Shown in pieces: positions 37,304-52,791 of a stretch of DNA of 64,000 nt. Below the pieces are notes generated by a model that searched no databases, was not told the origin of the DNA, and saw only the letters and a list, made by a program, of their open reading frames with translations. Both the position numbers and the translations under genes were made by a program. Source of the DNA: Candidatus Omnitrophota bacterium. Lineage in GTDB: Bacteria > Omnitrophota > Gorgyraeia > Gygaellales > Profunditerraquicolaceae. Within the stretch, counting starts at the first letter, position 1, and each line of letters opens with the position of its first letter. The stretch is taken from contig WOZK01000010.1 of NCBI GenBank assembly GCA_011620275.1, positions 5,257 through 69,256 on the forward strand. The letters are read 5' to 3'.

Positions 37304-38002
37304 ATGGCGGGAGAGAGGATATTGATAGTAGAGGATGACAAGAATATTTCCAGATTGCTGCGTTATAATCTGGAGAAAGAAGGCTATGTGTGTTCGCTGG
37401 CGTCGAATGCCGGAGAAGCGCTGGAAACGCTTTCTAGAGATAAGACGTCGTTGATCATCCTGGATATAATGCTGCCGGGCGGGGTAGACGGTTTTGAATT
37501 ATGCCGCAGAATTAAAAGAGAGCAGTCGTTGAAGGAGATACCTGTTATTATGCTCACTGCCCGGGGAGAGGAAGTGGACAGGGTGGTCGGATTGGAGCTT
37601 GGCGCCGACGACTATGTGGTCAAGCCTTTCAGCCCTCGGGAACTTACCCTGCGCGTTAAAGCCGTCTTGCGCAGACAAAACGCGCCTGAACAAGGCAGGG
37701 ATATCTTCTCCTGCGGGGGGCTGTATGTGAACCTCCCTGAGCATAAAGCGGAGGTGAACGGGAAAAACGTGGAGCTTACGCTTATGGAGTTCAAACTCCT
37801 GGCGGTCCTGGTAGCCAGGAAAGGCCGCGTGCAGACGCGCGACAAACTTCTTTCCGAGGTCTGGGATATGCACGCCGACGTGTACACGCGCACCGTGGAC
37901 ACCCATATAAAAAGGCTCAGGGAAAAACTCGGCCTCGCCGGCAGGATGATCGAAACCGTCAGGGGCGTCGGTTACCGTTTTAACTCCGCATATGAAGATT
38001 AG
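37304..38002 (+). CDS. phoB: OmpR/PhoB-family response regulator, close to PhoB
   Basis: ...[43 protein letters not shown] matches E. coli PhoB [43 protein letters not shown] nearly residue for residue. Winged-helix C-terminus. Confidence 0.85.
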   Translation: [232 protein letters not shown]

Positions 38003-39764
38003 GCTGCATTGGAAGCTTACCGCTTTTTTTTCCTGCGTTTTTATTTTCACATTCCTTGCAGGATACCTTTATCTTTCCGGGCAGGTGAAGGCCTTCCTGC
38101 GGGAGAATTTCTACTCGGACATTAAAAGCCAACTATTCATAAATAAAGCCGTCCTGGAAAGCCGTTTCTCCGGTAAAGTGCCGGTTGATTTGCAGGATAC
38201 GGCCGGGGTTATCGGTAAGGCGCTGTCCCTGCGGGTGTCGATTATCGGTACGGACGGACGCCTGTTGGGCGATTCCGGATTGACGCCGGAGCTGCTGCTG
38301 GCGGCGGACAACCACGCCGGCAGGCCGGAAGTCGCCGAGGCGTTTAGGAACGGCTTCGGGATGAGCAGGCGGTTCAGTCATACCCTGCGGCAGCAGATGC
38401 TCTATATGGCAGTGCCTTTCGGCAAGGGTGAGGTTAGCGGGGTACTGCGGTTCTCGGTGCCGGAGCGCCAAGTAGCATCTTTAGGAAGGCGCGGAGTGAA
38501 TGTTGCCGGGGCGGGGCTGATTTTGATACTTTTTTCCAGCCTGTTTATCACTTTCGTCACGTCCTTTTATGTCTCCAGGCCGCTTGTCTCCATCTCCAGG
38601 ACAGCCGAACTTATGGCAAAGGGAGACCTTTCCCGCAAGGCCCTGGTGAATTCCGGTGACGAGATAGGAGATCTCGCGGCGTCACTTAATTCATTGGCCG
38701 AGGAGATAAAAGGAAGGATAGACGGCATCAGTTCCGAGAAAGCCAAGCTGGACGCCGTTCTTGCCAGTATGTTCGAGGGGCTGGTAGTTATCGATGAACA
38801 GGAAAAGGTCGTCTTGATGAACCCCTCTCTGCGCGGGCTATTTTCCGTAAAAGAAGATCCGCAGGGCAGTAAACTGATCGAGGTGGTGCGTAATACCTCC
38901 GTTCAGGAGATGGCCGATAAGGTAATCTCGGAGAAAGAGCGTCTTGTCACCGGAGAGATCAGGATATTCGTTCCCGAAGAGAAGGTATTGCGCGTTAACG
39001 GCGTTCCTATAATTCGGAGGGGGAGGCTTGAAGGCGCCGTAATGGTTTTTCACGATATTACGGAGTTGAGGCGTCTGGAAAAGATTCGCCAGGATTTTGT
39101 CGCCAACGTCTCTCATGAATTGCGCACGCCTCTTTCCAGCATAAAGGGGTACGCCGAAACTTTGCTGGATGGGGCGGTCGACGATAAAGGGCACGCGCGG
39201 GAGTTTATCGGTATCATCCATCAGGAAAGCGACAGGCTGGCAAATCTGATCAACGACCTTCTCGATCTCGCCAGAATAGAGTCCGGGAATATGGAACTGT
39301 CCAAAGCGCCTTTTGATGTTTTGGCCGTCGCGAAACGGGTAGTAGAAAGCATGGGCGTCCAGGCGCGGGCTAAGTCCATAAAGCTGGGGATAACCGCTAC
39401 CTCCGGCGTCTTACCCTTAGCCGCCGGGGATGAGTTTGGATTCCGCCAGGTCTTGACCAATCTGCTTGATAACGCCTTGAAATACACTTCTGAAGGAGGC
39501 GACGTGACGATCTCCATAGAAGCGGCCGGAGGTTTTCTACAGGTCAACGTCGCGGATACCGGTATAGGTATTTCTCCGTCGGACATCCCTCGTATCTTTG
39601 AACGCTTTTACCGGGTGGACAAGGCCCGTTCGCGGGAAGCCGGCGGAACAGGCCTGGGATTGTCCATAGTAAAGCACATCGTGCAGGCCCACGGCGGCCG
39701 CGTATGGGTGGAATCCGAGCTCGGCTCCGGCTCCGTCTTCAGTTTTACCATCCCTTTAGCATAA
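37992..39764 (+). CDS. phoR: Sensor histidine kinase, PhoR-like (TM, HAMP, PAS, HisKA, HATPase)
   Basis: Overlaps phoB by 11 nt. H-box SHELRTPL, N-box, G-boxes (GGTGLGLSIVKHIV). In pst/phoU context. Confidence 0.8.
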   Translation: MKIRLHWKLTAFFSCVFIFTFLAGYLYLSGQVKAFLRENFYSDIKSQLFINKAVLESRFSGKVPVDLQDTAGVIGKALSLRVSIIGTDGRLLGDSGLTPELLLAADNHAGRPEVAEAFRNGFGMSRRFSHTLRQQMLYMAVPFGKGEVSGVLRFSVPERQVASLGRRGVNVAGAGLILILFSSLFITFVTSFYVSRPLVSISRTAELMAKGDLSRKALVNSGDEIGDLAASLNSLAEEIKGRIDGISSEKAKLDAVLASMFEGLVVIDEQEKVVLMNPSLRGLFSVKEDPQGSKLIEVVRNTSVQEMADKVISEKERLVTGEIRIFVPEEKVLRVNGVPIIRRGRLEGAVMVFHDITELRRLEKIRQDFVANVSHELRTPLSSIKGYAETLLDGAVDDKGHAREFIGIIHQESDRLANLINDLLDLARIESGNMELSKAPFDVLAVAKRVVESMGVQARAKSIKLGITATSGVLPLAAGDEFGFRQVLTNLLDNALKYTSEGGDVTISIEAAGGFLQVNVADTGIGISPSDIPRIFERFYRVDKARSREAGGTGLGLSIVKHIVQAHGGRVWVESELGSGSVFSFTIPLA

Positions 39765-39908: not shown

Positions 39909-40048
39909 GGGCGCTTGTCCTGAGCAGTTCAACAGGCTCACTGTCAATGCATTGTCGAAGGATCCGCCCGGGGAGCTTCATTTATCAGCAACAGAAACGC
40001 TAACCAACAGGTTCAATAATTCCCGCCTTCAAACCCTGGAAACGTAAT

Positions 40049-40100
40049 TTCACCATAATTTCACATGTTCTTACCTGTTCCGTCACATAGCGGTAATATA
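40049..40100 (+). promoter_or_regulatory. Array of five phased hexamer direct repeats (TTCACC, TTCACA, TTACCT, GTCACA, GTAATA) at exact 11-bp spacing, followed by a -10-like TAATAT: putative Pho boxes (PhoP/PhoB-type)
   Basis: Hexamers at 40049, 40060, 40071, 40082, 40093. Located 70 bp upstream of the single-domain RR gene that heads the giant-protein operon. Confidence 0.55.
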
Positions 40101-40167: not shown

Positions 40168-40599
40168 ATGGGCATTGTCAGGAGCGAGAGAGGCAACTGT
40201 TCCGTGGCCAGGAAGAGAATAATGGTCGTGGAGGATGAACAGGAGATAAGAAGGCTTATGTCTTTTCATATAGCCATAAGCGGTTACGATGCGGTTCCGG
40301 TAAGCGATGGCGCTGAAGCAGTGAAAAGCATCAGGGAAAGACTTCCCGATCTCATAGTCCTTGATATACTCATGCCGCGCATGAACGGTTGGGAACTGCT
40401 GGCCTGTCTGCGTAGGGAATTTCGAGGTAGCGATATCCCGGTGATCGTGGTAAGCGCGCTCGGTGAGGTGGACGACAAATTGCGCGCGTTTGCTTCCGGC
40501 GCAGAGGATTACATGACCAAGCCTTTCAGCCCGAGGGAATTGGTAGCCCGGATACAAAGGATACTTGAACGGCGCGGGGACGCCGGAATCGGGGTTTGA
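40168..40599 (+). CDS. Single-domain response regulator (receiver only)
   Basis: ...[15 protein letters not shown]...[18 protein letters not shown]...[11 protein letters not shown]...[23 protein letters not shown]. Its stop lies 17 nt before the giant ORF. Confidence 0.85.
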   Translation: [143 protein letters not shown]

Positions 40600-40616: not shown

Positions 40617-43600
40617 TTGGAACAATGCGCAGACATCCCCGGATCCGGAAATATTAGGCTTATGAGCAATTCGTTTCGTGAATATGGTTTTTTTCGCCGC
40701 GCGGTAACGTTTTTTACTTTCTTGTCCTGCATTTTCGCTTTCTGTCTTCCTTTTTCATTCAGCGCTCCGTCTATCCCTCTAAATCCCGCCGTTTCAGAAC
40801 GACCGGTTTTTGTTTTTCGGTCACTGACTGTAGAAAACGGCAATAAGTTTTTGCGTCTGCCGGTTTTCTCCGCGTCATCCGGACCAACAAGCAGGGAATC
40901 CTGTCTTGAAGAGGAAGCCGGGCGTTTGACACAGTATTTTCTCACAGGTCTTAACGCGCCGTCCGGGGATCTTTGGGTAAATCTTTCGCCGCGTGATCCG
41001 GGCAGAATCGTCGGCCCGGCGTTGAAAGGCACGGAAGCCGGCAAGGTCATGCTCGATGCCGACATACAGCTCAAAAAGGACTTTGCCGCCCTTATATCTC
41101 CTTATACGAACAGGGGAAGTAATTTTTGGGTGCGAGTGAGGATGAAGAGCGGCGAGCTGTTCGGCGCCGGTGGAATGCAAATCCCTCTGGAGATAAGGCT
41201 CTGGATAGAGCCGTCGGAAGTCGTGATAAAAGAAAGCAATGAGAGCGCTTTCATAGAGAGGGCCGTGCTGAAAGTTTCTTTTGAACCGGTTTTCGGGCCC
41301 GGGGCGGACAGCCGCCTTATCCTTTTCGGCAACTACGCCTGCGGTCTGCTTTCGCCTTCAGTTTCGGAAGAGTTGACCGCGGCGGTCAATTCCGCCCCGC
41401 GTTATTGTCGGCTGAGGCAGGTTTTCAATTCCCTGGTGTTGGCACAATGGTTAAAACAGAGATCCGCCTCCCGAGAGGCGTATAACGAACTTGCCGCACG
41501 CGGCGTGCTCTGTGGTTTAGTCTCCGGCGCGCGCTGGTCGGCGCAGGACTACTTCAGGCAGTACAAAAAACTGGCGCAGAAGCACTCCGTAGATTTTTCT
41601 TCCATTAGTTTTTTGTCGACGGGCGAGATAAGTGTTATCTCCGGCTTCAGCGGGGGAGTTTCTTTCGCTCTACCGGCGTTTCCGCCTCCTGGAACGGTAG
41701 CCCTGCCGTTCCATGCCGGAGCGGTTACCGTCAAACCGGCCTCAGGGAATGAGACCGATAAATTGTGCAGGTCCGTGGTCGAGGCAAGCATAAAAACAGG
41801 GGCTTCCGGAGGCGTGCCGGAATTGGGGATAACCGTTCATCCTCTGCCGGACAGGACTCCCGCTGACACGGATAAGCTGTTCGTTTATGTTCATCCCGCC
41901 GCATCGGACGGCGGAGAAAGCGGAGCAGGAACCGATTCCCAGTCCGTCGATAATAACGTTGAGCGTTCAGGGATCAGCCGGCAGGAATATTTTGATAGAT
42001 TGCTGCGTTCCTGGGCCGGGATACTGGATTCAAACGAGAGGAAGGAGTTCCATGCGTCAATACGCAACGATATTCTCAATATTTCCAGTCAATGCGTAAC
42101 AATCATGCCTTTTATCCCTGAACGGGCAACCGGTAAGGCAGAGTCTCTGGCTTCTGATATACGGCTGATCGTTGACTTGCTCCGCGAGACCGTTCGCAGG
42201 ATCGATTATAACGTTGTCCCTGCGGATGAAGAAGAAAGAAAATCGGTTGCCGCGGAACGGGAGGAATTGCTGGCGGCCATCGAGTATTTCGCGGAATACG
42301 AATATGCCCTGAATTTCGTGGTGAATATCCCGAAGATCGAGCCGTATAGATTCAAACGGGGAGGGCGTTTCTGGCGTGCTTGTGAAACGGCGGTAAGGAG
42401 GGTCTTTCTCTTTGAGTACGGGCTAAGACGGTCGAGGCAGCTGCTGCTGGAGCAGACGGATAAAGTTATCAGCTTGGGGAACCGGCTGAACCGCGCCTAT
42501 ACCGGTAAAGAGAAATACGTTAGAGAAGAATGGAAGAAGTGGATCGCCGAGCAGGACATCCTGAACGGCGGAGTTAAACGCGCAGCGGGCGTGAAGAACA
42601 AAAGCAGCGTTCCGCTTGGTATCAACCGGACATGGAAGACCACCGGGACCACTACCCGTTTTGTGAGTTTGATATCGGTGTGTTTGTTCCTGTTTGTATC
42701 CATGCTTGATTTCGGGCACATTCTTGCCGGCATTTCGTTATTCCTGCTCAAACTGGGCCTGGTCGGCATGTCTTTTTTTATTTCCTGGTACAGTATCGCC
42801 TGGGTCGGATTCAACGACGTTTGGTATAAGCAGCGCATATCGGAACTTGAGTCATTGAGGAACAACGAAGCCGTTTGCGATTTCAGAAGAGAGCGGATTA
42901 AATCCGAGATCACGCAGACTTTAAACAGTTTCAAGAGAGAGAAACGTGCCCCCAGCGTTGATTACATACTTGTTTTTTGCAAGCCGGGGATGAAAAAAAA
43001 CGTCCGGCTGAACCCCGAACTGCTCAGAGATGATGTTCTTCTGGAAATAACGGAAGCCGATTCCGGAAGCGGCGGGGTTTACGCGCAGGCGTGCAGCGAT
43101 CTTCTGTCCGGCAGGTACGATTCGTCATTTGAGAGAACGGCGAGGCTCAAAGGTAAAAGTGTTTCCGATATGCGCGGCATCGTGATTGTCCTTGAGCGCT
43201 TCTTTTCAGTTTCCGAGACGGACGGATATCTGGATAAAGCGGCATCCGGCGCCGTATTGCCGGCAGGCTGGGGCCCTTTGAATAATCTGGAGATGGCTTT
43301 GTTGAACGGTTATAAATCCACTCAGGAAATGGGTGCTTTGGGCAGGAGCGGGATGGTTTTTGTATTTGCCGATAACTTTCTAATCAGCCCCGCGACAATA
43401 AAGGGCGATATAACGTTGATAGGTTCATGGGACAGCTATCGGCATATAAAAGATTGGGGATTGGGGCTGCTTGTCGCCGATATCGGCAGCGGCGACAAGC
43501 TGGTTAAATTGTATGAAAAGGCGGATACTCCTCGTTTGCATAAGAAGCTTCGCAGGTCTTTTCTTTACACGGCGTTGGATTGGGAGAATGAGGACAAGAC

Positions 43601-46600
43601 CCAGATGCTGGGGTTCACCGGTATGACGATCTTCAGCTTCAAAGATCCGGGGCAGTACAGGCGTTTCCTTGGACTGATGGCGGAGATAAATACGTTAATC
43701 AAGCCGCAGAAATCCCCGGTTTTCACAGATCGGGAAGCTTCATTATCTCCCGTGCCCGGGCGTTATTCATTCGTGCCTGAAATCATGGTGCCTTTGGTCA
43801 TGACCGGTAACGGCGAGAATCCGTATACCTATCTGGATACTCGTTTCAGTAACGGGGAATTTTCCGGCGGTGATCACGGCCGGGAATACAAGGTAAGAAA
43901 AGAACTGATAAACAGAATTTTCGCGCAAAGGAACACTTTGCGCCCGGAGGTCAAGGTTTGCGCCGGCACCAATTCATTGTTCTTCAGACCGTGGAATGAC
44001 TCCGGACAAGAAACGGCGGGTATCCCTGACAAGAAAGATGGTGATAGTGCCGATGAAGACAAGTTTCAGGATATCCTGCTTTACTTTGCCGATCTGCTGT
44101 CCGGCAAGAGGGGTCAGCATCTTGATAAAAAGGCGCGCAATGAAATATTGAATATCGTGCACCGCTGCGTAATCCGCAATCCTTTTACTACGGAATGCGC
44201 GGCGGACAATCCGGAGAGAACGGCCGCCGATATATACATCCTGGCGGAACTGTTGAAAAAAAGTATAAGCATACTGGGCGAACAAGCCGGGAGCGCCGGG
44301 ACGCGGGAAGCGGAGGAACTCTTGTCGGACAGGGACCATCTATTGGCGGTATTCGAGTATTTTTCCCGATATGAATACGCGCTTAACTTTGTGGCCAACA
44401 TCTCGAAAATAGAGCCGTATAAATTCAAGAGGGCGGATCCCTTATCCAGCCGGTTGAGCTGGTTGGTGAGGCGTCTTTTTTCTTTCGAAACAGGTCTGCG
44501 AAAGTCGCGGGAGAGACTGTATAAGCAACTGGATGAGGTGATGGAATACGGCAATCTCGTGAACGGACTGTATTATGGCAGGGAAGAGGATATCAGACGA
44601 GAGTGGAAAGAGTGGGTGAACCGGTATTCATTATTGAAACGCGAAGACAGAGCGGCAGGACGGTTGAGCGGGCAGGTCCCCCCGCTCTCCGACAAGTGTA
44701 TGACAAGATTCATGCATAGGCAGAAGGTTCAATTGGGTGTCAACCGTATCTGGGACAGCGATAGAGGAATGATGTCGAGATTGCTGAGCTTGATCTCCCT
44801 GACCTTATTTGCCGTATTGACTATCGCGCCGTTTATCGGCGCCGGCAGTTTGTCATTATTCTGGGGGGCGATGCAGTCTCCCGGCAGTTTTATCGCCGCC
44901 TCTTATGCAAACGGGGATATTACGGCTTTCGTTCTCACCTCGATCAGATTTTGTCTCGGCGTCATTCCCCTGATCTTTTCCTGGTATAACCTCAGTTTCG
45001 TAAGCGTAAGCGATCCTTGGTACGAGTCCAATATGAAGCTTATAGCGGATTTTAGGCACGCCGGGGCGGGGAAATACGCTTCGGAAAGCGGCTTATCTAA
45101 AGAATTCAACGCCCTTGTCCGGGCGTATGAGGCCGAGATATCGGCTCCTCTTCCGTCGGCAGACTTCTTGATAGTAGTCGGCAGCGGCTCGCCGGATAGT
45201 AAAAAATATTTCACGGGAAACGGAATGCCGATCCGGGATAAAGGTGTGTTTCTGAAATATCTCACCGGAAGCCGCGGCAGCGGGAATGCCTGGTTGTCCG
45301 CGGTCAGATACCTGGAATCGGATTTTATGAAGGAGAGCGGCCGGTCTCCACAGGGGCTTAAAGGAATAATAATCCTCGCTGATGACATCGAGACCCCCGT
45401 TCGCCTCCCGTTCTCTCTTCCGCAGAGAACCCTGAAGCGATCCGGGCGCCCTTTGAGCAATATAGATCTTGCTATTCTTAACGGTTACAAATTGACGCAG
45501 CAGATGGCGTCGGAAGGCAGGGGCGGCCTTGTGGTTACCTATGCGGATAGCCTGTTGATAAGTCCGATGCAGATAGACGGTGATATCACGGTGTCCGGCG
45601 TATGGACGGATTATGAACAGTTGCGCGAACAAAACCCCGGATTGCTTATTGCCGATGTGGGCAAAGGAAATCGTCTCAGGAAGATGTATGAAAAAGCCGA
45701 TTTGCATAGAGTACGCGGCAAGATAGAAAAAGCGGCCGGTCCGGGCGCGATAAACTGGGCTGAAATGAAACGCAGGCAGCTGCTTGTTTTCGCAGGAACG
45801 GTCGTCATCAGTTTTAAGGACGATGTGCGTTATGCCGGTTTCCTCAAGATGATGGCTGAAGCGGCCGTCTTCTCCACGCCCCGGGGCAATAAAGAGGATA
45901 AATTGTCGTTCGTTTCCGATATCTTCATTCCTTTATTGATGTTGATGAACAATGAGAATCCTTACACGTACCTGGATGCGGTATCGCTCGGGCAGAACAG
46001 GGAATTTGTCATGAACGAAGAGGGATGCGTCTTGAGAAGAAGAATAATACGGTTGTTTGAAAAGCAGCGGGATATTCTGCCGGGTATGGCGAGGGTATGT
46101 GTTCATCCTCAGGGGACATATCTGAGGCTGGACCATAGCCCTTTTGCCGGCAAGAGACTCGCTTATTTAAATGCCCGCATGCGGCAAGAGACGTCCGGCG
46201 TGTCGGTTTCGCATTCGTCTCTGGAGAATCGAGCGCCGGATACCGCGCGGGAAAAGGGAGTTCGGACTGAGTGGAAGAATGACTGCAGGGATAAACCGGC
46301 ATTCAGGCCGGCCGGGAACGCCGCCGGCCGGGCATTCGCGGTTTCCTCCGCGTTTCCGTTATCCGTTGATTTCTTATGGAATACGGACAGGCTGCAGACC
46401 GTCTTAAGGGATAGGTTGGACAAGGAGCTCCTGAGAGAATGGCGTTATCGGCGTGCTTGGGATGTATTGTCTGTGAAGTCCAAGGTATGCCGTAGGGATG
46501 TTTTGTCCGCAGGGGAAGTGTTGGGAGAAGAATTTGAGGTTTTTCCGCAGGCAGAAAACCGCCGGCGGGAAGATGTTTTCGGACGGGCAATAGGTTATGC

Positions 46601-47276
46601 CGTCATGGACGGATGGCGGGCCCCCCTGGACGGATGGCGGGCCCCCGATGCATTTTACAGCTCGGTCCAGCCGCCGCAAGAAGGGTTTCCCGGTCCTCTG
46701 CCGCTTGACAGCGGCGGTCCCTGGTCCTCAAGATATAAGTTCCAATATGGAGGGACTTATTCTGGGGCCGGAATGTTCACGAGACCCGGCGGCGGAGAAA
46801 GAGCTGTCCTTTCAGATAAGCCGGGGCAGGAGGCGTATTTGTTCGTTCCCGCGCCGCTTCTTAAGCCGGCGAACAGACTTAAGGAGAATGAAGAATGCGT
46901 TTATAACCTTTGGGCAAAACCTAAGAATGGAGGAGAAGGATTCATGCTTTTGGGAGGGCTTGGCGGACTTTCAGCTCTCTCGGAAGGGCTGATAGAAAAA
47001 GCCCTGCAGGCGCTCGCGAATGCCGGTAAGGATGCTTCCGGATTCAATTTCTTTCTTGTCAGCAGTTGTGATCTCTCCAACCGAATAGACGTGACCCCTC
47101 AGTTATACGCGTCCGCCGGAGACGGTTGTTTTTCGCGAGGCGATTACAAAGGCGCTTTAAAATATTACGATCTCTGCCTCGATCTCTACGGCAAAGCCGG
47201 CCTGTCCCCGTCTCTTTATGAAAGGATCGCGGCGGGAAAACAAAAGGCCGGTGAGATGCTGAAAACGGGGGCCTGA
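40617..47276 (+). CDS. Giant (2219-aa) exported/membrane protein of unknown function with two tandem ~700-aa paralogous modules, each with a TM hairpin, and a TPR-like C-terminus
   Basis: Uninterrupted 6.66-kb ORF. Signal/anchor at residues ~20-50. Module A (nt ~42040-44130) and module B (~44130-46200) share about 45-50% identity (EYFAEYEYALNFVVNIPKIEPYRFKR vs EYFSRYEYALNFVANISKIEPYKFKR, LNGYKSTQEMG vs LNGYKLTQQMA, NENPYTYLD in both). TM pairs at ~42655-42830 and ~44760-45010. DGWRAPL tandem repeat at 46606-46647. No confident catalytic family. Confidence 0.75.
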   Translation: MEQCADIPGSGNIRLMSNSFREYGFFRRAVTFFTFLSCIFAFCLPFSFSAPSIPLNPAVSERPVFVFRSLTVENGNKFLRLPVFSASSGPTSRESCLEEEAGRLTQYFLTGLNAPSGDLWVNLSPRDPGRIVGPALKGTEAGKVMLDADIQLKKDFAALISPYTNRGSNFWVRVRMKSGELFGAGGMQIPLEIRLWIEPSEVVIKESNESAFIERAVLKVSFEPVFGPGADSRLILFGNYACGLLSPSVSEELTAAVNSAPRYCRLRQVFNSLVLAQWLKQRSASREAYNELAARGVLCGLVSGARWSAQDYFRQYKKLAQKHSVDFSSISFLSTGEISVISGFSGGVSFALPAFPPPGTVALPFHAGAVTVKPASGNETDKLCRSVVEASIKTGASGGVPELGITVHPLPDRTPADTDKLFVYVHPAASDGGESGAGTDSQSVDNNVERSGISRQEYFDRLLRSWAGILDSNERKEFHASIRNDILNISSQCVTIMPFIPERATGKAESLASDIRLIVDLLRETVRRIDYNVVPADEEERKSVAAEREELLAAIEYFAEYEYALNFVVNIPKIEPYRFKRGGRFWRACETAVRRVFLFEYGLRRSRQLLLEQTDKVISLGNRLNRAYTGKEKYVREEWKKWIAEQDILNGGVKRAAGVKNKSSVPLGINRTWKTTGTTTRFVSLISVCLFLFVSMLDFGHILAGISLFLLKLGLVGMSFFISWYSIAWVGFNDVWYKQRISELESLRNNEAVCDFRRERIKSEITQTLNSFKREKRAPSVDYILVFCKPGMKKNVRLNPELLRDDVLLEITEADSGSGGVYAQACSDLLSGRYDSSFERTARLKGKSVSDMRGIVIVLERFFSVSETDGYLDKAASGAVLPAGWGPLNNLEMALLNGYKSTQEMGALGRSGMVFVFADNFLISPATIKGDITLIGSWDSYRHIKDWGLGLLVADIGSGDKLVKLYEKADTPRLHKKLRRSFLYTALDWENEDKTQMLGFTGMTIFSFKDPGQYRRFLGLMAEINTLIKPQKSPVFTDREASLSPVPGRYSFVPEIMVPLVMTGNGENPYTYLDTRFSNGEFSGGDHGREYKVRKELINRIFAQRNTLRPEVKVCAGTNSLFFRPWNDSGQETAGIPDKKDGDSADEDKFQDILLYFADLLSGKRGQHLDKKARNEILNIVHRCVIRNPFTTECAADNPERTAADIYILAELLKKSISILGEQAGSAGTREAEELLSDRDHLLAVFEYFSRYEYALNFVANISKIEPYKFKRADPLSSRLSWLVRRLFSFETGLRKSRERLYKQLDEVMEYGNLVNGLYYGREEDIRREWKEWVNRYSLLKREDRAAGRLSGQVPPLSDKCMTRFMHRQKVQLGVNRIWDSDRGMMSRLLSLISLTLFAVLTIAPFIGAGSLSLFWGAMQSPGSFIAASYANGDITAFVLTSIRFCLGVIPLIFSWYNLSFVSVSDPWYESNMKLIADFRHAGAGKYASESGLSKEFNALVRAYEAEISAPLPSADFLIVVGSGSPDSKKYFTGNGMPIRDKGVFLKYLTGSRGSGNAWLSAVRYLESDFMKESGRSPQGLKGIIILADDIETPVRLPFSLPQRTLKRSGRPLSNIDLAILNGYKLTQQMASEGRGGLVVTYADSLLISPMQIDGDITVSGVWTDYEQLREQNPGLLIADVGKGNRLRKMYEKADLHRVRGKIEKAAGPGAINWAEMKRRQLLVFAGTVVISFKDDVRYAGFLKMMAEAAVFSTPRGNKEDKLSFVSDIFIPLLMLMNNENPYTYLDAVSLGQNREFVMNEEGCVLRRRIIRLFEKQRDILPGMARVCVHPQGTYLRLDHSPFAGKRLAYLNARMRQETSGVSVSHSSLENRAPDTAREKGVRTEWKNDCRDKPAFRPAGNAAGRAFAVSSAFPLSVDFLWNTDRLQTVLRDRLDKELLREWRYRRAWDVLSVKSKVCRRDVLSAGEVLGEEFEVFPQAENRRREDVFGRAIGYAVMDGWRAPLDGWRAPDAFYSSVQPPQEGFPGPLPLDSGGPWSSRYKFQYGGTYSGAGMFTRPGGGERAVLSDKPGQEAYLFVPAPLLKPANRLKENEECVYNLWAKPKNGGEGFMLLGGLGGLSALSEGLIEKALQALANAGKDASGFNFFLVSSCDLSNRIDVTPQLYASAGDGCFSRGDYKGALKYYDLCLDLYGKAGLSPSLYERIAAGKQKAGEMLKTGA

Positions 47277-47311
47277 AGCGGAGAAAAGGCCGCAAAACCG
47301 GGGAAAAAGAG

Positions 47312-47365
47312 TTCACACGGATTTCACAAATGCTTAATTCAGTTGTAACGGAGTGGTTTTATACT
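47312..47365 (+). promoter_or_regulatory. Phased TTCACA, TTCACA, TTAATT, GTAACG repeats (11-bp period) plus a TATACT -10: putative Pho-box promoter of the porin-pstS1 operon
   Basis: Hexamers at 47312, 47323, 47334, 47345. TATACT at 47360-47365. 110 bp upstream of the porin start. Confidence 0.55.
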
Positions 47366-47476: not shown

Positions 47477-48778
47477 ATGAAAAAATGGTATTTATTGTTT
47501 ACGGCGGCAGCGGTATTCGCAACAGCGCCGGTATCCAACGTCCGCGCCGGGGAGATCGACATCCTGCTGGATAAACTGGTTGATAAAGGAGTGCTTACCG
47601 CAGGGGAGGCGCGGCAGATAGCAGCCGAGACCAAGGAGGACGTTCGTAAAGAGGTCGCGGCCGGCAAGTCGGACATCCTGCCGAAATGGGTGCAGAACAC
47701 GAAATTGAAGGGTGATTTCCGCCTGCGTTATCAAATGGACCATGCCAAGAGTTCTCATAATCAAACAAAGAACAGACAGCGCGGACGCATCAGGGCGCGC
47801 CTGGGGCTTGAATCGAAAGTGAATGAGAAACTGCTCGTGGCGGTTGGAATAGCCACCGGCTTGAACGAATACACGACGTCCAACAAAGACACCATCCGTT
47901 CCACAAACCAGACGCTCGGCGCTTCCTGGTCTAAGAAGCCGTTTAACCTGGATTACGCCTACGCTAAATACACCCCGATGCCCGGGTTCGCGGTGATCGG
48001 CGGTAAAATGCTGCTTAAGGATGCGATTTGGGAGCCGGGCGACCTGATGTGGGATACCGATATTACCCCGGAAGGCGTGGCTTTTGATTTCGCCAGAAAT
48101 GTAAACAGCGATATGAGCGTTTTCCTGAAGAGCGGTTTCTTCCTGTTTGAAGAGATCAGCTCCAGCAACGACGACCCGTATTCCATACATATCCAGCCAG
48201 GTATGGACGTGAAGATCGCCGACGGTATCTCTCTGCGCGCTTCGGTGGCGGCAGACTATTTCCGGGTGCGCGATTTTACTTTAAAAGGCAGTTCGGTGAG
48301 CAACACCGGGTCGTATAAGAGCGGGGATAACAGCTACGCGGTCCCCATGGCAAACTACACCAATATAATGCCTGCCCTTGAATTGAAATTTAGCGATCCA
48401 TTCAAGGCGTTCCATATCAACGTGCCGCAGTTGAGACTCTTCGGAGAATACATCAGGAACTTCGCAGACATCGATCCTTACACCGGTAAGAGCGGTTATA
48501 TGCTCGGGTTCGGCCTCGGCGCCGACAAGGTCGCCAAATTCGGAGACTGGGTGTTGAAATATAACTACGCCAGGCTGGAAAAGAACGCCGTGCTTGATAT
48601 CCTGCCGGATTCCGACCGTTACGAGGGGAAGACCAATATCCGCGCGCACGAGATCGCGCTCGATTTCGGACTGGGTGAGAATACCTGGCTTGGCCTCGAC
48701 GTTTACAGAGCACAGTTGTTGACTGCTCCAAGAGCTCCTTCTACGGTAGTGCAGGTTGACTGGAATATGAAGTTCTAA
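47477..48778 (+). CDS. Outer-membrane beta-barrel porin, probably phosphate-selective (OprO/OprP-like)
   Basis: Signal peptide MKKWYLLFTAAAVFATAPVSNVRA, an N-terminal helical segment, alternating amphipathic beta-strand pattern, and a C-terminal aromatic (..VDWNMKF). Sits immediately upstream of pstS behind putative Pho boxes. Confidence 0.55.
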   Translation: MKKWYLLFTAAAVFATAPVSNVRAGEIDILLDKLVDKGVLTAGEARQIAAETKEDVRKEVAAGKSDILPKWVQNTKLKGDFRLRYQMDHAKSSHNQTKNRQRGRIRARLGLESKVNEKLLVAVGIATGLNEYTTSNKDTIRSTNQTLGASWSKKPFNLDYAYAKYTPMPGFAVIGGKMLLKDAIWEPGDLMWDTDITPEGVAFDFARNVNSDMSVFLKSGFFLFEEISSSNDDPYSIHIQPGMDVKIADGISLRASVAADYFRVRDFTLKGSSVSNTGSYKSGDNSYAVPMANYTNIMPALELKFSDPFKAFHINVPQLRLFGEYIRNFADIDPYTGKSGYMLGFGLGADKVAKFGDWVLKYNYARLEKNAVLDILPDSDRYEGKTNIRAHEIALDFGLGENTWLGLDVYRAQLLTAPRAPSTVVQVDWNMKF

Positions 48779-48841
48779 GCCAGGGTTGAAGCGGGATGCC
48801 CGGTGAAACGGACAACGAAAATAATTAAGGAGGAAAAACAA

Positions 48842-49657
48842 ATGAGAGCTAAAACGTTAATCTTATGCGCCGCCGCGGCGATCTTTCTGGCGGCAGCGGC
48901 ACCCTGTTACGCCGGCAAGGTCGTGGTGGAAGGTTCCACCACGGTATTGCCGATAGCCCAGCGCGCCGCGGAAGTCTTTATGGACGATAACCCGCAGGTA
49001 GACATTTCGGTGCGGGGCGGAGGGTCAGGGGTCGGCATAGCTTCTTTGCTGGCCGGCACCTGCGATATCGCCGATTCGTCCCGTCCCATAAAGGAAAAGG
49101 AACTTGAAGACGCTGTGAGCCGCGGCAAAGACCCCAAGGCTAACGTAATCGCGATGGACGGAATAGCCGTGATAGTAAACCCTTCCAATCCCGTCAAGTC
49201 CATGACTAAGAAACAGTTAAAGGATATTTATACGGGAAAGATATCTTCGTGGTCTGCCTTGGGAGGCAGCGGTTCGATAGTGGCGGTTTCCCGGGACAGC
49301 TCTAGCGGGACCTTTGAAGCGTTCGGCGAGCTCGCTCTGGACAAGGAGAAGGTTAGGCCGGACGCGCTTATGGAAGCATCCAACCAAGCTGTCGCCTCGG
49401 TGGTGGCCAAGACACCGGGCGCGATAGGTTACGTCGGGATCGGCTACATAAACGATTCCGTGAAGGCGCTTGAGCTTAACGGCGTCTATCCTTCCAAAGA
49501 AACGGTTTTGCGCAACCGTTATGCGCTTTCCCGTCCATTATTTATGTATACGAACGGCAAGCCTGACGGTGATTGCAAATCCTTTCTTGATTTCATCATG
49601 AGCAAACAAGGACAGATTCTGGTGGAAAAAGAGGGTTACATCCCGCTGGGCGGATAG
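48842..49657 (+). CDS. pstS: Phosphate ABC transporter substrate-binding protein PstS
   Basis: AAGGAGG RBS before ATG 48842. Signal peptide, then GSTTVLPIAQRAAEVF...GGGSGVGIASLLAGTCDIADSSRPIK..., the PstS family signature. Confidence 0.9.
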   Translation: MRAKTLILCAAAAIFLAAAAPCYAGKVVVEGSTTVLPIAQRAAEVFMDDNPQVDISVRGGGSGVGIASLLAGTCDIADSSRPIKEKELEDAVSRGKDPKANVIAMDGIAVIVNPSNPVKSMTKKQLKDIYTGKISSWSALGGSGSIVAVSRDSSSGTFEAFGELALDKEKVRPDALMEASNQAVASVVAKTPGAIGYVGIGYINDSVKALELNGVYPSKETVLRNRYALSRPLFMYTNGKPDGDCKSFLDFIMSKQGQILVEKEGYIPLGG

Positions 49658-49826
49658 CCGGGCCACGGAAGGCGTATAAGTGTAAACCATGTACCCGGTC
49701 TATAGTGTAAAGTATGTTACCAGTTTGTACCATTATCGCCTCTTCCGTCATCCTCCCCATCAAGGTGAGGAAAGAAGCGAATACTTGGCCTTCCGATAGG
49801 CCAAGGTAAATCCCCGGCACTCTACA

Positions 49827-49953
49827 GGGTACCCCTTAGATAAACTAAGGGCAAGTCTGAGCCGCATTTTCACACGAGTGAACACCTGCCTCTCCTTGAA
49901 GGCAGAGTGCTATTCCGAGAGGTAACCCGGCTTGATTAAGTATCGTGTCCCCG
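49827..49953 (-). repeat. 127-bp dispersed repeat, right (inverted) copy
   Basis: Reverse complement of 39782..39908 with about five mismatches. Ends 17 bp before the pstC start. Confidence 0.85.
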
Positions 49954-49969
49954 GAAGAAAAAATCTACT

Positions 49970-50860
49970 ATGAAAAGATTATTCTCCAAAGAAAGCGTTT
50001 ACGCCTCTGTCTTCGGCATACTGGCCTTTGCCTGTTTGATCTTTCTGGCGGGAATAACCCTGGTACTTTTTAAAGAAGGACTGCCGTTGTTCGCCAAGGT
50101 AAGCCTGTGGGATTTCCTTTCCGGTACCGCGTGGTATCCCACGCACGAAGACCCCGAGTTCGGGATACTGTCGCTGTTGGCCGGCTCGTTATGGGTTACC
50201 GCGGGAGCGATGCTGGTTTGTCTTCCTTTGGGCATAGGCAGCGCCCTTTATATAAACGAGATCGCCGGCAATACCCAGAAGGCGGTGTTGAAACCGCTGG
50301 TGGAATTGCTGGCGGGTATCCCTTCCATAGTGTTCGGTTTTTTCGGGATGGTGGTGGTCGCGCCGTTCCTGCAGAGGCTGCTGCATATTCCTACAGGGCT
50401 TTGCGCCTTTACCGCCAGCCTCATCCTGGGTATCATGGCGGTCCCCACTGTCTGCAGTCTTTCCGAGGATGCCTTGAGCTATGTTCCTGCCAGTTACCGG
50501 GAGGCGTCCCTTGCGCTCGGCGCCACCCGCTGGGAGACTTTAATCAAGGTCGTTCTACCGGCTGCCGGTTCAGGTATATCCACGGCCGCCATACTCGGTG
50601 TCAGCAGGGTGATGGGCGAAACGATGACGGTCCTGATGGTCTCCGGAGGGGCGGCTATAATCCCGCATTCTTTTTTTCAGCCGGTAAGGCCGTTGACGTC
50701 CACTATCGCCGCGGAGATGGGGGAGGCCGCCGTGGGCAGCACGCATTACCAAGCGCTCTTCGCCATAGCCATGGTGCTTTTCACGCTTACTTTCATTTTT
50801 AATATCGCCGCCGAGATCTTAAGCCGCAGATACCGGTTAAAGCTGGGAATACAAAGATGA
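49970..50860 (+). CDS. pstC: Phosphate ABC transporter permease PstC
   Basis: Six TM helices and the EAA-like loop ...LGATRWETLIKVVLPAAGSGI... Confidence 0.9.
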   Translation: MKRLFSKESVYASVFGILAFACLIFLAGITLVLFKEGLPLFAKVSLWDFLSGTAWYPTHEDPEFGILSLLAGSLWVTAGAMLVCLPLGIGSALYINEIAGNTQKAVLKPLVELLAGIPSIVFGFFGMVVVAPFLQRLLHIPTGLCAFTASLILGIMAVPTVCSLSEDALSYVPASYREASLALGATRWETLIKVVLPAAGSGISTAAILGVSRVMGETMTVLMVSGGAAIIPHSFFQPVRPLTSTIAAEMGEAAVGSTHYQALFAIAMVLFTLTFIFNIAAEILSRRYRLKLGIQR

Positions 50861-51804
50861 GAAGAAAGATTTGCGTTACAGGAGTCTTCCGGAAGCTTTT
50901 TGAGCGGACGTTCGCGCGGAGCGCCGGGAACGTTTCGGTATCGGCCGGATCCTATAGGAACAAGCAGGCCGCGCAGAAAGCCGGGTTTTTCCTGTTGTTC
51001 TGCTGTATCCTCGCGACGCTGCTGTTCCTCGGCAGTATCGTTTATTTCATTTTTGCGGGGGGAAGTAAAGTCGTCACTTGGGGTTTCCTCACCCAGTGGC
51101 CGCGCAACGCTATGACCGAAGGCGGGATATTCCCGGCTCTGTTGGGGACTTTTTATCTTACCCTTGGGGCGGTAACGGTCGCTTTACCGCTGGGGCTGGC
51201 GTGTGCCGTGTATCTATGCGAATATACGCCCGGCAGCCTGGCGCTTAACGCCATTCGCATCGGCATAAACAATCTTGCCGGAGTGCCGTCGGTCGTCTTC
51301 GGGCTTTTCGGCCTGGCGGTGTTTGTGAAATTCTTTGGTTTCGGGGTTTCGGTGCTTTCCGGGAGCCTGACTTTGGGAATACTTATTCTGCCGGGAATAA
51401 TATCGGCTTCACAGGAGGCGCTTATGGCCGTGCCTAATTCCCTCAGGGAGGCTTCTTTCGCTTTGGGAGCTACCCGCTGGCAGACAATCAAGAAAATAGT
51501 CGTCCCACAGGCGTTGCCGGGTATATTGACCGGCGTGATCTTGAGCATCGGCAGGGCGGCGGGCGAGACCGCTCCCATACTTTTTACCGCCGCGGCTTTT
51601 TATACGCGGAGGTATCCGCAGTCTCCGTTTTCTGAAGTCATGGCGCTGCCTTATCATATTTACGCCCTGATGACTGAAGGGACGCATCCGCGCCAGCAAA
51701 CGGTTATAGCCTACGGCAGCGCGCTGGTTTTGCTTATACTGGTGCTGCTGATTTCCGGGACCGCGGTTTTCATACGCCAGAGACATAGGAGTTACAATGG
51801 ATAA
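50857..51804 (+). CDS. pstA: Phosphate ABC transporter permease PstA
   Basis: ...[48 protein letters not shown]... Confidence 0.9.
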
Positions 51805-52558: not shown

Positions 52559-52639
52559 TCGGTTATCTTTTGCCCGGTCGCGATACTTTATTTCAGTTTC
52601 ACCGATGCTTTAATCGGATACGGCTATTACGACCCCTGC

Positions 52640-52790: not shown

Positions 52791-52791
52791 T

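What the first reader, a model, noticed from the sequence alone, without database searches (positions are those of the whole stretch)
40617..47276. Giant ORF built from an ancient tandem duplication of a ~700-aa module with its own TM hairpin; no recognisable catalytic domain
Direct reading shows two co-linear paralogous modules, about 45-50% identical:
- Module A: aa ~475-1170, nt ~42040-44130.
- Module B: aa ~1170-1865, nt ~44130-46200.

Each module contains:
- a helical segment (EYF[AS].YEYALNFV.NI.KIEPY.FKR);
- a two-helix membrane hairpin;
- a globular region with conserved blocks: LNGYK.TQ.M, [VI]SP..I.GDIT, LL[VI]AD[IV]G.G..L.K.YEKAD, ISFKD, NENPYTYLD.

The hydrophobic and acidic pattern (FVFADNFLISP, LLVADIGSGD) loosely recalls sugar-nucleotidyltransferase or GT-A-like folds. 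I cannot assign a family.

The N-terminal 450 aa and the C-terminal 350 aa are unique. The C-terminal part has a DGWRAPL x2 tandem repeat at 46606-46647 and a TPR-like tail. Topology would put four TM helices around large soluble domains on alternating sides.
Basis: seen in the sequence. Interest (0 to 1): 0.7.

Follow-up and report, generated by a model that had tools for sequence, protein, structure and literature searches.

The report
Phosphate-regulon giant membrane protein, Omnitrophota
A real 2,200-residue gene of an uncultured Omnitrophota bacterium sits inside its phosphate-starvation gene cluster and carries two ancient copies of a membrane-anchored module whose globular part has the fold of sugar-nucleotide-making enzymes; no protein-family database describes the module, and what it does chemically is still unknown.

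Summary
The ORF (40617/40662..47276, +) is real and under purifying selection (dN/dS 0.25). Full-length orthologs at 47-94% identity come from independent assemblies. The internal duplication is confirmed (aa 476-1124 vs 1167-1837, E 2e-104), but identity is 33%, not 45-50%. It arose once in the ancestor of this clade.

Two of its inferences were wrong:
- The "unique" N-terminus is a signal peptide plus a domain shared by at least 663 Omnitrophota protein clusters.
- Hairpins place the soluble domains on the same side of the membrane, not alternating sides.

New here:
- The gene lies between phoBR and porin-pstSCAB-phoU, as do relatives in 7 of 8 informative loci.
- It shares a Pho-box-like repeat with the pst operon (2 matches in the window, 0.03 expected).

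Most likely it is a phosphate-starvation envelope protein with non-canonical nucleotidyltransferase-fold domains. Chemistry and membrane topology are unresolved.

The parts
37304..39764 (+). PhoB-like response regulator (37304-38002) and PhoR/PnpS-like histidine kinase (37992-39764)
   Evidence: Pfam Response_reg + Trans_reg_C, and HAMP-PAS-HisKA-HATPase_c. NCBIfam best hits are PhoB (1.3e-73, below the equivalog cut-off) and PnpS (2e-130, above the cut-off).
40048..40099 (+). Pho-box-like tandem repeat TTTCAC-N5-TTTCAC (40048-40064), with weaker half-sites at 40070 and 40081 and a -10-like TAATAT at 40094-40099
   Evidence: The pattern KTTCAC-N5-KTTCAC has exactly 2 matches in 64 kb, against 0.03 expected. 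It occupies the same position in L001, L002/3, L008 and L009. Sequence read. Binding by the PhoB-like regulator is inferred.
40168..40599 (+). Single-domain receiver (REC) gene, probably co-transcribed with the giant ORF (gap of 17-62 nt)
   Evidence: Pfam Response_reg 8.8e-28. The same gene precedes the orthologs in L001 and L009.
40617..47276 (+). Giant ORF (2219 codons from TTG 40617; probable start ATG 40662, giving 2204 aa)
   Evidence: Orthologs P0001-P0005 at 94-47% identity. dN/dS is 0.25 against the P0002 gene.
40662..40772 (+). Sec-type signal peptide (MSNSFREYGFFRR + hydrophobic core + FSFS|AP)
   Evidence: Hydropathy peak at aa 30-48. Essentially all full-length family members begin with a signal peptide that has an AxA|Q-like c-region. 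Cleavage is inferred.
40812..41756 (+). N-domain (aa 66-380), an Omnitrophota-wide N-terminal domain with no solved structural neighbour
41982..44060 (+). Module A (aa 456-1148): helical bundle 41982-42644, TM hairpin 42645-42815, nucleotidyltransferase-fold domain about 42954-43991
44061..46205 (+). Module B (aa 1149-1863): helical bundle, TM hairpin 44766-45011, nucleotidyltransferase-fold domain about 45114-46151
   Evidence: dN/dS of the alpha/beta domain is 0.24. The fold is inferred from homology to module A (33% identity).
46212..46841 (+). Fast-evolving C-terminal linker (aa 1866-2075), including the strain-specific 21-nt tandem duplication at 46599-46640 (DGWRAP x2)
   Evidence: dN/dS 0.55. 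Repeat D5. The close orthologs have a single copy.
46842..47273 (+). Conserved C-terminal tail (aa 2076-2219) with one weak TPR-like motif
   Evidence: dN/dS 0.14. Conserved in all five orthologs. Pfam TPR_2 E 0.026, below threshold.
47311..47327 (+). Second Pho-box-like repeat (GTTCAC-N5-ATTTCAC), upstream of the porin-pst operon
47477..53466 (+). Porin_5 porin (47477-48778), PstS (48803-49657), PstC (49970-50860), PstA (50857-51804), PstB (51797-52558), PhoU (52786-53466)
   Evidence: Pfam and NCBIfam hits.

Best explanation
Shown:
- This is a genuine, conserved gene of a Candidatus Omnitrophota bacterium.
- It sits between phoB/phoR and porin-pstSCAB-phoU.
- Together with a small receiver-domain gene, it lies behind a Pho-box-like direct repeat. 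The only other copy in the window is in front of the porin-pst operon.
- The protein consists of a Sec-type signal peptide, a phylum-specific N-domain, two copies of a ~690-aa module and a conserved C-tail.
- Each module is a helical bundle, a two-helix membrane hairpin and an alpha/beta domain with the sugar-1-phosphate nucleotidyltransferase fold, closest to the GDP-fucose pyrophosphorylase domain of FKP.

Inferred:
- The gene is switched on by phosphate limitation through the PhoB-like regulator. The protein works in the cell envelope alongside the porin, PstS and, in relatives, a neighbouring exported TPR protein.
- The nucleotidyltransferase-fold domains are not canonical NTP + sugar-1-P pyrophosphorylases. 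By a tentative mapping, the glycine/arginine loop that holds the leaving pyrophosphate is missing in both copies. The Asp (FAD/YAD) and Glu-Lys (YEKAD) positions, which in FKP bind Mg2+ and the sugar phosphate, are kept.
- The domains therefore most likely bind, and perhaps cleave or transfer, a nucleotide-linked phospho-compound such as an NDP-sugar. This would serve phosphate scavenging or phosphate-sparing envelope remodelling.
- The two modules of one chain replace the homodimer that single-module relatives would form.
For: Gene reality:
- Orthologs at 47-94% identity.
- dN/dS 0.25 overall, 0.12 and 0.24 for the two alpha/beta domains.

Duplication:
- E 2e-104.
- Present in all orthologs.
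- A+B monophyletic 100/100.

Fold:
- AF2 pLDDT 72.6 overall and 80-93 in the alpha/beta domain.
- Foldseek: 9iis E 6.9e-4 (prob 1.00), AGPase 2.8e-3, GMPPA/B 0.012, eIF2B 0.034.

Pho link:
- Neighbouring genes.
- The same neighbourhood for P0004, P0006, P0051, P0055, P0060 and P0074.
- Pho-box-like repeat: 2 matches against 0.03 expected, at conserved positions in relatives.

Export:
- Signal peptides across the family.
- The neighbouring TPR proteins also carry signal peptides.

Active-site pattern:
- Alignment A3, compared with the FKP residues D136, Q186/K187, G75-R80 and K89 (PMC11982464; G75-Q-S-R-R-L from the primer).
Against: - No sequence profile links the domain to any nucleotidyltransferase, so the fold assignment rests on a model built from 9 sequences.
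- Residue equivalences with FKP were mapped by secondary-structure order, not by superposition.
- Across the wider family the Asp and Lys are not invariant. This fits a binding or scaffold role as well as catalysis.
- Topology is contradictory. The signal peptide, with no further hydrophobic segment before aa 677, puts everything outside the cytoplasm. The positive-inside rule (K+R of 4.3 and 3.3 per 20 flanking residues against 2.1 per 55-residue core, over 55 hairpins) puts the module's soluble parts inside.
- Pho regulation is inferred from position and a cis-motif, not from expression data.
Confidence: 0.5

Rival explanations
1. Canonical cytoplasmic enzyme. Each alpha/beta domain is an active sugar-1-phosphate nucleotidyltransferase held at the inner face of the membrane by its hairpin. 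It makes an NDP-sugar for phosphate-free glycolipids or polysaccharides during phosphate starvation, analogous to teichuronic-acid or glycolipid replacement.
For: - The fold match is to active pyrophosphorylases.
- Asp and Glu-Lys motifs are retained in both window modules.
- The positive-inside rule favours cytoplasmic module domains.
- The Pho context fits phosphate-sparing remodelling.
Against: - The G-rich GGxGxR loop is absent in both modules. By tentative mapping it reads VLERFFS in A and ILADDIE in B, and there is no conserved basic residue there across the family.
- No profile similarity to PF00483 or PF07959.
- The signal peptide predicts export.
- No glycosyltransferase partner gene lies in any of the loci.
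Confidence: 0.15
2. Non-catalytic scaffold or sensor. The nucleotidyltransferase-fold domains are pseudoenzymes, like eIF2B gamma/epsilon or GMPPA. They bind a metabolite or partner protein and organise or regulate the Pst/porin/PhoR machinery. Alternatively they are simply another building block of the Omnitrophota surface-associated long proteins.
For: - Catalytic-position residues vary across the family.
- eIF2B and GMPPA/B are among the fold matches.
- The module is reused, in 1 to 4 copies, in many long multi-domain proteins.
- A receiver-domain gene is co-transcribed and a TPR partner is conserved in relatives.
Against: - Many polar residues are conserved family-wide (SAD, GSG, NGYK, RxGG, GDIT, YEK, RQ, DILVPL).
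- Purifying selection on both alpha/beta domains is strong.
- Together these suggest a specific ligand or active site rather than a mere spacer.
Confidence: 0.27
3. Ion or phosphate channel. The long helices plus two-helix hairpin form a CorA/ZntB-like oligomeric pore, and the alpha/beta domain acts as a cytoplasmic regulatory domain.
Against: - There is no GMN-type loop motif; the loop is DFGH in module A and a long uncharged loop in module B.
- pLDDT in the hairpin is only 33-57.
Confidence: 0.04
4. Artefact: a mis-assembled chimera of two paralogous genes, or a spurious long ORF.
For: None found.
Against: - The same two-module, full-length architecture occurs in five orthologs from independent assemblies, and in a 98%-identical NCBI MAG contig.
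- The modules share only about 71% identity over 108 nt.
- dN/dS is 0.25.
Confidence: 0.01

Closest known systems
GDP-fucose pyrophosphorylase (N-terminal) domain of Bacteroides fragilis FKP (PDB 9iis/9iit), and the wider sugar-1-phosphate nucleotidyltransferase superfamily (AGPase, UGPase, GMPP, HddC, RmlA)
   Same: - An N-terminal extension precedes the core strand, as in FKP.
- An Asp after the central strand (FAD/YAD) and a Glu-Lys after a later strand (YEKAD) sit where FKP has D136 and Q186-K187.
- A GSG loop sits where FKP has G38-S39.
   Different: - Only 11-12% identity, with no profile-level similarity.
- The pyrophosphate-binding GGxSRR loop is missing.
- There is no beta-helix domain and no kinase domain.
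- The domain is fused to a helical bundle and a membrane hairpin, duplicated in tandem, preceded by a signal peptide, and encoded in a Pho locus rather than a sugar-salvage or polysaccharide locus.
Long/giant multi-domain membrane proteins of Omnitrophota (West-Roberts et al. 2023 bioRxiv 10.1101/2023.11.21.568195; Nielsen & Lui 2026 bioRxiv 10.64898/2026.06.07.730766; Seymour et al. 2023 PMC10066038)
   Same: - Same phylum.
- A signal peptide plus scattered TM helices at roughly one per 400 residues.
- Internal domain repeats that are old at the nucleotide level.
- Enzyme-like domains predicted on the 'wrong' side of the membrane.
- The N-domain heads relatives that carry PEPCK, PGM, PGK, aldolase, PPDK, NUDIX and HEAT domains.
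   Different: - Only 2.2 kAA, whereas those catalogues start at 10 kAA or 20-30 kb.
- A defined two-module architecture with true orthologs, whereas the giants are mostly sequence-unique.
- Conserved in a phosphate-regulon neighbourhood, not next to the type II secretion, pilus or PilZ genes reported for the giants.
- In the sections of those papers I read or searched, I found no description of the shared N-domain or of this module.
Pho-regulon envelope proteins of other bacteria (PhoA/PhoX/PhoD phosphatases, UshA UDP-sugar hydrolase, PhoE/OprP porins). Comparison from general knowledge.
   Same: - Located in or next to the pst-phoU and phoBR genes.
- A Pho-box-type direct repeat with 11-bp period, resembling the B. 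subtilis PhoP TT(A/T/C)ACA repeats.
- Signal-peptide-bearing product.
   Different: - A different fold from any known Pho-regulon hydrolase.
- No demonstrated hydrolytic motif.
- Very large and membrane-tethered by internal hairpins.
Catalytic/regulatory paralogue pairs of nucleotidyltransferases (plant AGPase small/large subunits, GMPPB/GMPPA, eIF2B epsilon/gamma)
   Same: Duplication of a nucleotidyltransferase-fold unit, followed by divergence of the two copies. These are among the fold matches.
   Different: Here the two copies are in one polypeptide, each with its own membrane hairpin. Neither copy shows the full catalytic signature.

Membership tests
Sugar-1-phosphate nucleotidyltransferase superfamily (Pfam NTP_transferase PF00483; FKP-type GFPP domain) | Rossmann-like alpha/beta nucleotidyltransferase fold | tested here: met
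   [not shown]
Sugar-1-phosphate nucleotidyltransferase superfamily (Pfam NTP_transferase PF00483; FKP-type GFPP domain) | Significant match to the family's sequence profile | tested here: not met
   - No Pfam or NCBIfam hit for the window protein.
- Only one faint PF00483 hit (E 0.23) in one relative.
- PDB profile searches with A1 and A3 find no nucleotidyltransferase.
Sugar-1-phosphate nucleotidyltransferase superfamily (Pfam NTP_transferase PF00483; FKP-type GFPP domain) | Glycine-rich NTP/pyrophosphate loop G-G-x-G/S-x-R (FKP G75-R80) plus a downstream Lys (K89) | tested here: not met
   At the strand that aligns with the canonical first strand, some relatives keep 'LAGG'. The window modules read VLERFFS (A) and ILADDIE (B), and no basic residue is conserved there. 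The mapping is by secondary-structure order plus a non-significant hhalign, so it is tentative.
Sugar-1-phosphate nucleotidyltransferase superfamily (Pfam NTP_transferase PF00483; FKP-type GFPP domain) | Mg2+-binding Asp (FKP D136) and phosphate-binding Lys of the E/Q-K motif (FKP K187) | tested here: inconclusive
   Both window modules have FAD/YAD and YEKAD at the expected places. Across 32 diverse family members the Asp and Lys are each present in only about 60-70%. Equivalence was not checked by superposition. FKP residues are from PMC11982464.
Sugar-1-phosphate nucleotidyltransferase superfamily (Pfam NTP_transferase PF00483; FKP-type GFPP domain) | NTP + sugar-1-P -> NDP-sugar + PPi activity | not testable with these tools
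   Requires biochemistry.
Omnitrophota long/giant multi-domain membrane proteins | Encoded by Omnitrophota | tested here: met
   A 98%-identical locus lies in 'MAG: Candidatus Omnitrophota bacterium isolate SO_2017_LW3_111'. Nearly all source-named homologs are Omnitrophota/Omnitrophica; the exceptions are one 'Sciscionella sp.' MAG fragment and two hydrothermal-vent metagenome entries.
Omnitrophota long/giant multi-domain membrane proteins | Signal peptide and/or TM helices scattered through a long multi-domain chain, with old internal repeats | tested here: met
   Signal peptide plus two hairpins in 2204 aa. Duplicated module with only 71% identity over 108 nt at the DNA level. Compare Nielsen & Lui sections 8-9.
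Omnitrophota long/giant multi-domain membrane proteins | Length threshold used in the literature (>=10,000 aa, or ORF >20-30 kb) | tested here: not met
   2,204-2,219 aa.
Pho (phosphate-starvation) regulon | Location in the phoBR / pstSCAB-phoU locus, conserved across relatives | tested here: met
   Window, L001, L002/3, L004, L005, L006 and L014. One weaker module-bearing relative (P0018) is elsewhere. One contig is too short to judge.
Pho (phosphate-starvation) regulon | Pho box (direct repeats with 11-bp period) in the promoter region | tested here: met
   KTTCAC-N5-KTTCAC occurs at 40048-40064 and 47311-47327 only, with 0.03 expected. Positions are conserved in relatives. That the PhoB-like protein binds it is inferred.
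Pho (phosphate-starvation) regulon | Induction by phosphate limitation, dependent on PhoB | not testable with these tools
   Needs transcriptomics or reporter assays in an uncultured lineage.
CorA/ZntB/Mrs2 metal-ion channels | GMN-type loop motif between the two TM helices, and specific fold similarity | tested here: not met
   [not shown]
PhoU | Profile similarity to the PhoU domain | tested here: not met
   [not shown]
TPR repeat proteins (C-terminal tail) | Pfam TPR match above threshold, or similarity to the neighbouring TPR proteins of related loci | tested here: not met
   TPR_2 E 0.026 at 15 bits, against a cut-off of 27. BLASTP finds nothing below E 0.3 and hhalign gives probability 4.8% against the four neighbouring TPR proteins.

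The most novel reading that the evidence does not exclude
The module is a previously undescribed, Omnitrophota-specific branch of the nucleotidyltransferase fold that works outside the cytoplasm. Under this reading the protein is Sec-exported and hairpin-tethered. It is induced by phosphate starvation and captures or cleaves nucleotide-linked phospho-compounds (NDP-sugars, nucleotides, possibly from a host or prey cell) in the periplasm, feeding phosphate to the adjacent porin/PstS system. More broadly, the shared signal peptide plus N-domain would be a phylum-wide export or anchoring leader. That leader would place 'cytoplasmic-type' enzyme domains (PEPCK, PGM, PGK, aldolase and others) in the envelope of these episymbiotic bacteria.
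Probability: 0.15. Interest if true: 0.85.

Novelty: new variant of a known kind. Interest (0 to 1): 0.58.

Why it matters
- It gives a concrete, testable handle on the poorly understood long membrane proteins of Omnitrophota. This one has true orthologs, a defined domain plan, a recognisable fold and a clear regulatory setting (phosphate starvation).
- It defines two protein families absent from Pfam and NCBIfam. One is a membrane-hairpin-linked, FKP-like nucleotidyltransferase-fold module with about 118 representative clusters among 1.84 billion. The other is an abundant N-terminal domain behind a conserved signal peptide, with no solved structural neighbour.
- It sharpens an open puzzle already noted in the literature: why enzyme domains of cytoplasmic type sit behind signal peptides in this phylum.
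- If the domains act in the envelope on nucleotide-linked substrates, that would be a new kind of Pho-regulon function.

Tried and rejected
- **Profile search with A1:** a word-indexed protein search with the module alignment A1 returned nothing, not even the orthologs. I treated this as a limit of the tool. The exhaustive HMMER search replaced it.
- **PDB sequence searches:** profile searches with A1, A2 and A3 gave no meaningful hit.
- **hhalign against RmlA:** It aligned only the putative G-loop strand.
- **PhoU homology of the helical region:** rejected.
- **CorA-like channel:** rejected as a family assignment (loop motifs).
- **Fusion idea:** the C-terminal tail is not a fused copy of the separate TPR gene seen in related loci. 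There is no significant similarity.
- **Libraries and scans:**
  - The AlphaFold-database fold library was unavailable, so the N-domain was compared with the PDB only.
The single-protein scan found only the near-identical MAG contig.
  - The sigma-70 promoter and terminator scan gave nothing above chance.
  - Rfam found no match in the window.
- **Stand-alone N-domain genes:** their context showed no consistent neighbours.
- **Trees:** the first tree script timed out. The second had saturated distances. Only one search is used.

Full report
**1. The observation**

The window has one uninterrupted ORF at 40617..47276 on the + strand, 2219 codons. The orthologs start at the ATG at 40662 (MSNSF...), giving 2204 aa.

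A BLASTP of the first half against the second half aligns aa 476-1124 with aa 1167-1837. Identity is 33% (232/700) and E is 2e-104. An HMM built from the modules places the two copies at aa 456-1148 and 1148-1863.

At the DNA level the copies share only one 108-nt stretch at 71% identity (42253-42360 vs 44326-44433). There is therefore no repeat that could cause a mis-assembly.

Five full-length orthologs at 94, 85, 49, 48 and 47% identity, from JGI, ENA, Logan and NCBI assemblies, all carry both modules. A 98%-identical contig belongs to 'MAG: Candidatus Omnitrophota bacterium isolate SO_2017_LW3_111'.

Against the 85% ortholog, dN/dS values are as follows:

| Region | dN/dS |
|---|---|
| Whole gene | 0.25 |
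| Alpha/beta domain, module A | 0.12 |
| Alpha/beta domain, module B | 0.24 |
| Hairpins | 0.16-0.20 |
| C-terminal linker | 0.55 |
| C-terminal tail | 0.14 |

Both copies are therefore maintained by selection.

In a neighbour-joining tree of 30 full-length modules, the A copies, the B copies, and A+B together are each monophyletic in 100/100 bootstraps. The duplication thus happened once, in the ancestor of this clade. That was after the split from single-module relatives and before the orthologs diverged to about 47% identity. Another protein (P0049) duplicated its module independently.

**2. What the module is**

No Pfam or NCBIfam model hits the protein.

An AlphaFold2 model of module A, built from a 9-sequence alignment, has mean pLDDT 72.6 and pTM 0.74. 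It shows:
- seven helices;
- a poorly resolved two-helix hydrophobic hairpin;
- an alpha/beta domain (module residues ~325-670, protein aa ~780-1125) with pLDDT mostly 80-93.

Foldseek independently puts 9iis first (E 6.9e-4, probability 1.00). It is followed by potato AGPase (2.8e-3), GMPPA/B (0.012), eIF2B (0.034) and HddC.

It is not supported at the sequence level:
- PDB profile searches find nothing.
- Only one relative gives a faint PF00483 hit, at E 0.23.
- hhalign against RmlA is not significant.

**3. Is the nucleotidyltransferase-like domain catalytic?**

In FKP the pyrophosphorylase site uses these residues (PMC11982464; the G75-Q-S-R-R-L sequence is visible in a mutagenic primer):
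- D31, G38 and S39 for guanosine;
- the loop H73/G75/G76/S78/R79/R80 plus K89 for the phosphates;
- D136 for Mg2+;
- Q186-K187 for the sugar phosphate.

I compared these with a 32-sequence alignment of the alpha/beta domain (A3).
- Both window modules keep an Asp after the central strand (FVFAD, VTYAD), an invariant-in-orthologs YEKAD, and a GSG loop.
- At the strand corresponding to the canonical first strand, some relatives read 'LAGG'. The window reads VLERFFS (A) and ILADDIE (B), and no conserved Arg or Lys follows.
- Across the family the Asp and Lys are present in only about two thirds of members.
- Other polar blocks are strongly conserved: SAD, NGYK, RxGG, GDITLLGSW, RQ..FTG and DILVPL.

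This mapping rests on secondary-structure order, not on superposition, and is tentative. My reading is that the domain descends from an FKP-like nucleotidyltransferase. It retains a conserved ligand site but has lost the pyrophosphate-handling loop. A canonical NTP + sugar-1-P reaction is therefore unlikely.

**4. Family and distribution**

An exhaustive HMMER search of 1.84 billion representatives with the module profile finds only 118 proteins at E <= 1e-3, and 48 at E <= 1e-30. Nearly all are 1,000-5,400 aa long and carry one to four module copies. About a third of them also have the N-domain. The commonest simple form is N-domain plus one module, 1,100-1,670 aa.

Residues ~66-380 match the N-termini of about 40 other long Omnitrophota proteins. 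Their remaining sequence carries PEPCK, isocitrate lyase/malate synthase, aldolase, PGM, PGK, transketolase, PPDK, NUDIX, GT2, HEAT, receiver or kinase domains.

A search with a more typical member finds at least 663 clusters. Nearly all that have a source name are Omnitrophota/Omnitrophica, and some are stand-alone proteins of 350-520 aa. Essentially every full-length member begins with a Sec-type signal peptide with a conserved c-region (..FEQSGFAQ..AYAQ).

**5. Genomic setting**

Upstream lie a PhoB-like regulator and a PnpS/PhoR-like kinase (37304-39764), then a single-domain receiver gene (40168-40599) that ends 17-62 nt before the giant ORF. Downstream lie a Porin_5 porin, PstS, PstC, PstA, PstB and PhoU (47477-53466). 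A second pst-phoU set follows further on.

The same neighbourhood holds for:
- the 48% ortholog (L001);
- the distant single-module relatives P0006 (L002/3), P0051 (L004), P0055 (L005) and P0060 (L006);
- P0074, which has HEAT repeats inserted (L014).

In these relatives a separate ~250-aa TPR protein, with its own signal peptide (checked in L002 and L004-L006), is always adjacent. In two loci His_Phos_1-Ppx-PPK1-CHAD genes are next door. One weaker module-bearing protein (P0018) lies elsewhere, and one contig is too short to judge. That makes 7 of 8 informative loci.

Scanning the intergenic regions for 11-bp-periodic repeats revealed KTTCAC-N5-KTTCAC. It occurs exactly twice in the 64-kb window, against 0.03 expected, with 0 of 100 shuffles reaching 2:
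- at 40048-40064, about 100 nt upstream of the receiver gene, followed by weaker half-sites and a -10-like TAATAT;
- at 47311-47327, upstream of the porin gene.

The same two positions carry the motif in L001, L002/3, L008 and L009, and the porin position does in L006. The repeat resembles the B. subtilis PhoP TT(A/T/C)ACA direct repeats (general knowledge).

I conclude that the receiver-giant pair and the porin-pst operon share a cis-element and are probably co-regulated by the PhoB-like protein. Binding and induction are inferred, not shown.

**6. Topology, the unresolved point**

Hydropathy finds the N-terminal signal sequence (aa 27-49), hairpin A (677-733) and hairpin B (1384-1465). Nothing reaches TM-like hydrophobicity between aa 50 and 677.

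Which side is unclear.
- The signal peptide, the exported TPR neighbour and the envelope character of the operon argue for the periplasm.
- The positive-inside rule argues for the cytoplasm. Over 55 hairpins, K+R averages 4.3 and 3.3 in the 20-residue flanks against 2.1 in the ~55-residue core.

The same contradiction, cytoplasmic-type enzyme domains predicted outside, is noted for Omnitrophota giant proteins by West-Roberts et al.. It is also implicit in the SP+TM class of Nielsen & Lui.

**7. Explanation and rivals**

Best supported: this is a phosphate-starvation-regulated envelope protein. Its two non-canonical nucleotidyltransferase-fold domains bind, and possibly process, a nucleotide-linked phospho-compound. 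The two modules would act as an intramolecular pair. Overall confidence is 0.5. It is high for architecture, fold and Pho linkage, and low for chemistry.

Rivals:
- an active cytoplasmic NDP-sugar synthase for phosphate-free envelope polymers (0.15);
- a non-catalytic scaffold or sensor, like GMPPA or eIF2B (0.27);
- a CorA-like channel (0.04);
- an artefact (0.01).

**8. Comparison with what is known, and novelty**

The alpha/beta domain is a very divergent member of a known fold superfamily. It fails the family's sequence and G-loop criteria, so I do not file it as a nucleotidyltransferase enzyme.

The protein belongs to the recently described phenomenon of long multi-domain membrane proteins of Omnitrophota. 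It is much smaller than those catalogued, has real orthologs, and has a conserved Pho-regulon context. In the sections I read or searched, those papers do not report such a context, this module, or the shared N-domain.

I rate it a new variant of a known kind, with interest 0.58. The function is still open, but the locus makes a puzzling class of proteins experimentally approachable.

Noticed in passing
window 39784-39907 and 49827-49950: A 124-nt inverted repeat, 98% complementary, brackets the 9.9-kb segment holding the receiver gene, the giant ORF, the porin and pstS. One copy, partly conserved, is found in the near-identical MAG contig L008, whose 13.4 kb may not reach the second arm; it is absent from more distant orthologous loci. 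It has no Rfam match, and its folding energy is not unusual, with z -1.3 and -0.9. It could be a MITE/REP-like element or the boundary of an invertible or mobile segment.
   Followed up: partly
window 40048-40064 and 47311-47327; also L001, L002, L003, L006, L008, L009: A candidate Omnitrophota Pho box, KTTCAC-N5-KTTCAC with an 11-bp period. It is found only upstream of the receiver-giant pair and the porin-pst operon. With one mismatch allowed, only one extra site appears, at 20781-20797 on the - strand.
   Followed up: yes
N-termini of P0006-P0162 family members (e.g. P0052, P0071, P0074, P0087): The signal peptides of the N-domain family share an unusually conserved c-region (LLCF..LLFEQSGFAQ / ..PAYAQ) across paralogues with unrelated downstream domains. 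This hints at a dedicated sorting or processing signal rather than a generic Sec leader.
   Followed up: no
P0009, P0013, P0014, P0019, P0025, P0038, P0041: Long Omnitrophota proteins that start with the same signal peptide and N-domain carry central-metabolism Pfam domains: PEPCK, isocitrate lyase, malate synthase, aldolase, PGK, PGM, transketolase/transaldolase and PPDK. Several of them (P0009, P0013, P0038) have no predicted TM helix at all, so the signal peptide alone would place these enzyme domains outside the cytoplasm.
   Followed up: partly
window 51260-53466 vs 58386-63405: The window holds two paralogous pst-phoU clusters, with repeats at 71-84% nucleotide identity (Pfam). A Fur-family regulator (53691-54191) and two ParA/NUBPL-like Fe-S P-loop NTPase genes (56051-58154) lie between them. 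The duplicated pst set is also seen in L001, L004 and L005.
   Followed up: partly
L002/L003 1436-5909 and L006 13902-18935: In two related loci a His_Phos_1 - Ppx/GppA - PPK1 - CHAD polyphosphate gene set lies directly next to the Pho cluster that holds the module protein. The window has no such set within the region examined.
   Followed up: no
window 33620-35431: An AsmA/DUF748-like protein (603 aa) lies upstream of the Pho locus, as in L001. It is a marker of an outer-membrane-bearing (diderm) envelope.
   Followed up: no
window 1-64000: The Rfam gathering-threshold scan found no RNA family match anywhere in the 64-kb window, including no tRNA. ARAGORN was not run.
   Followed up: no
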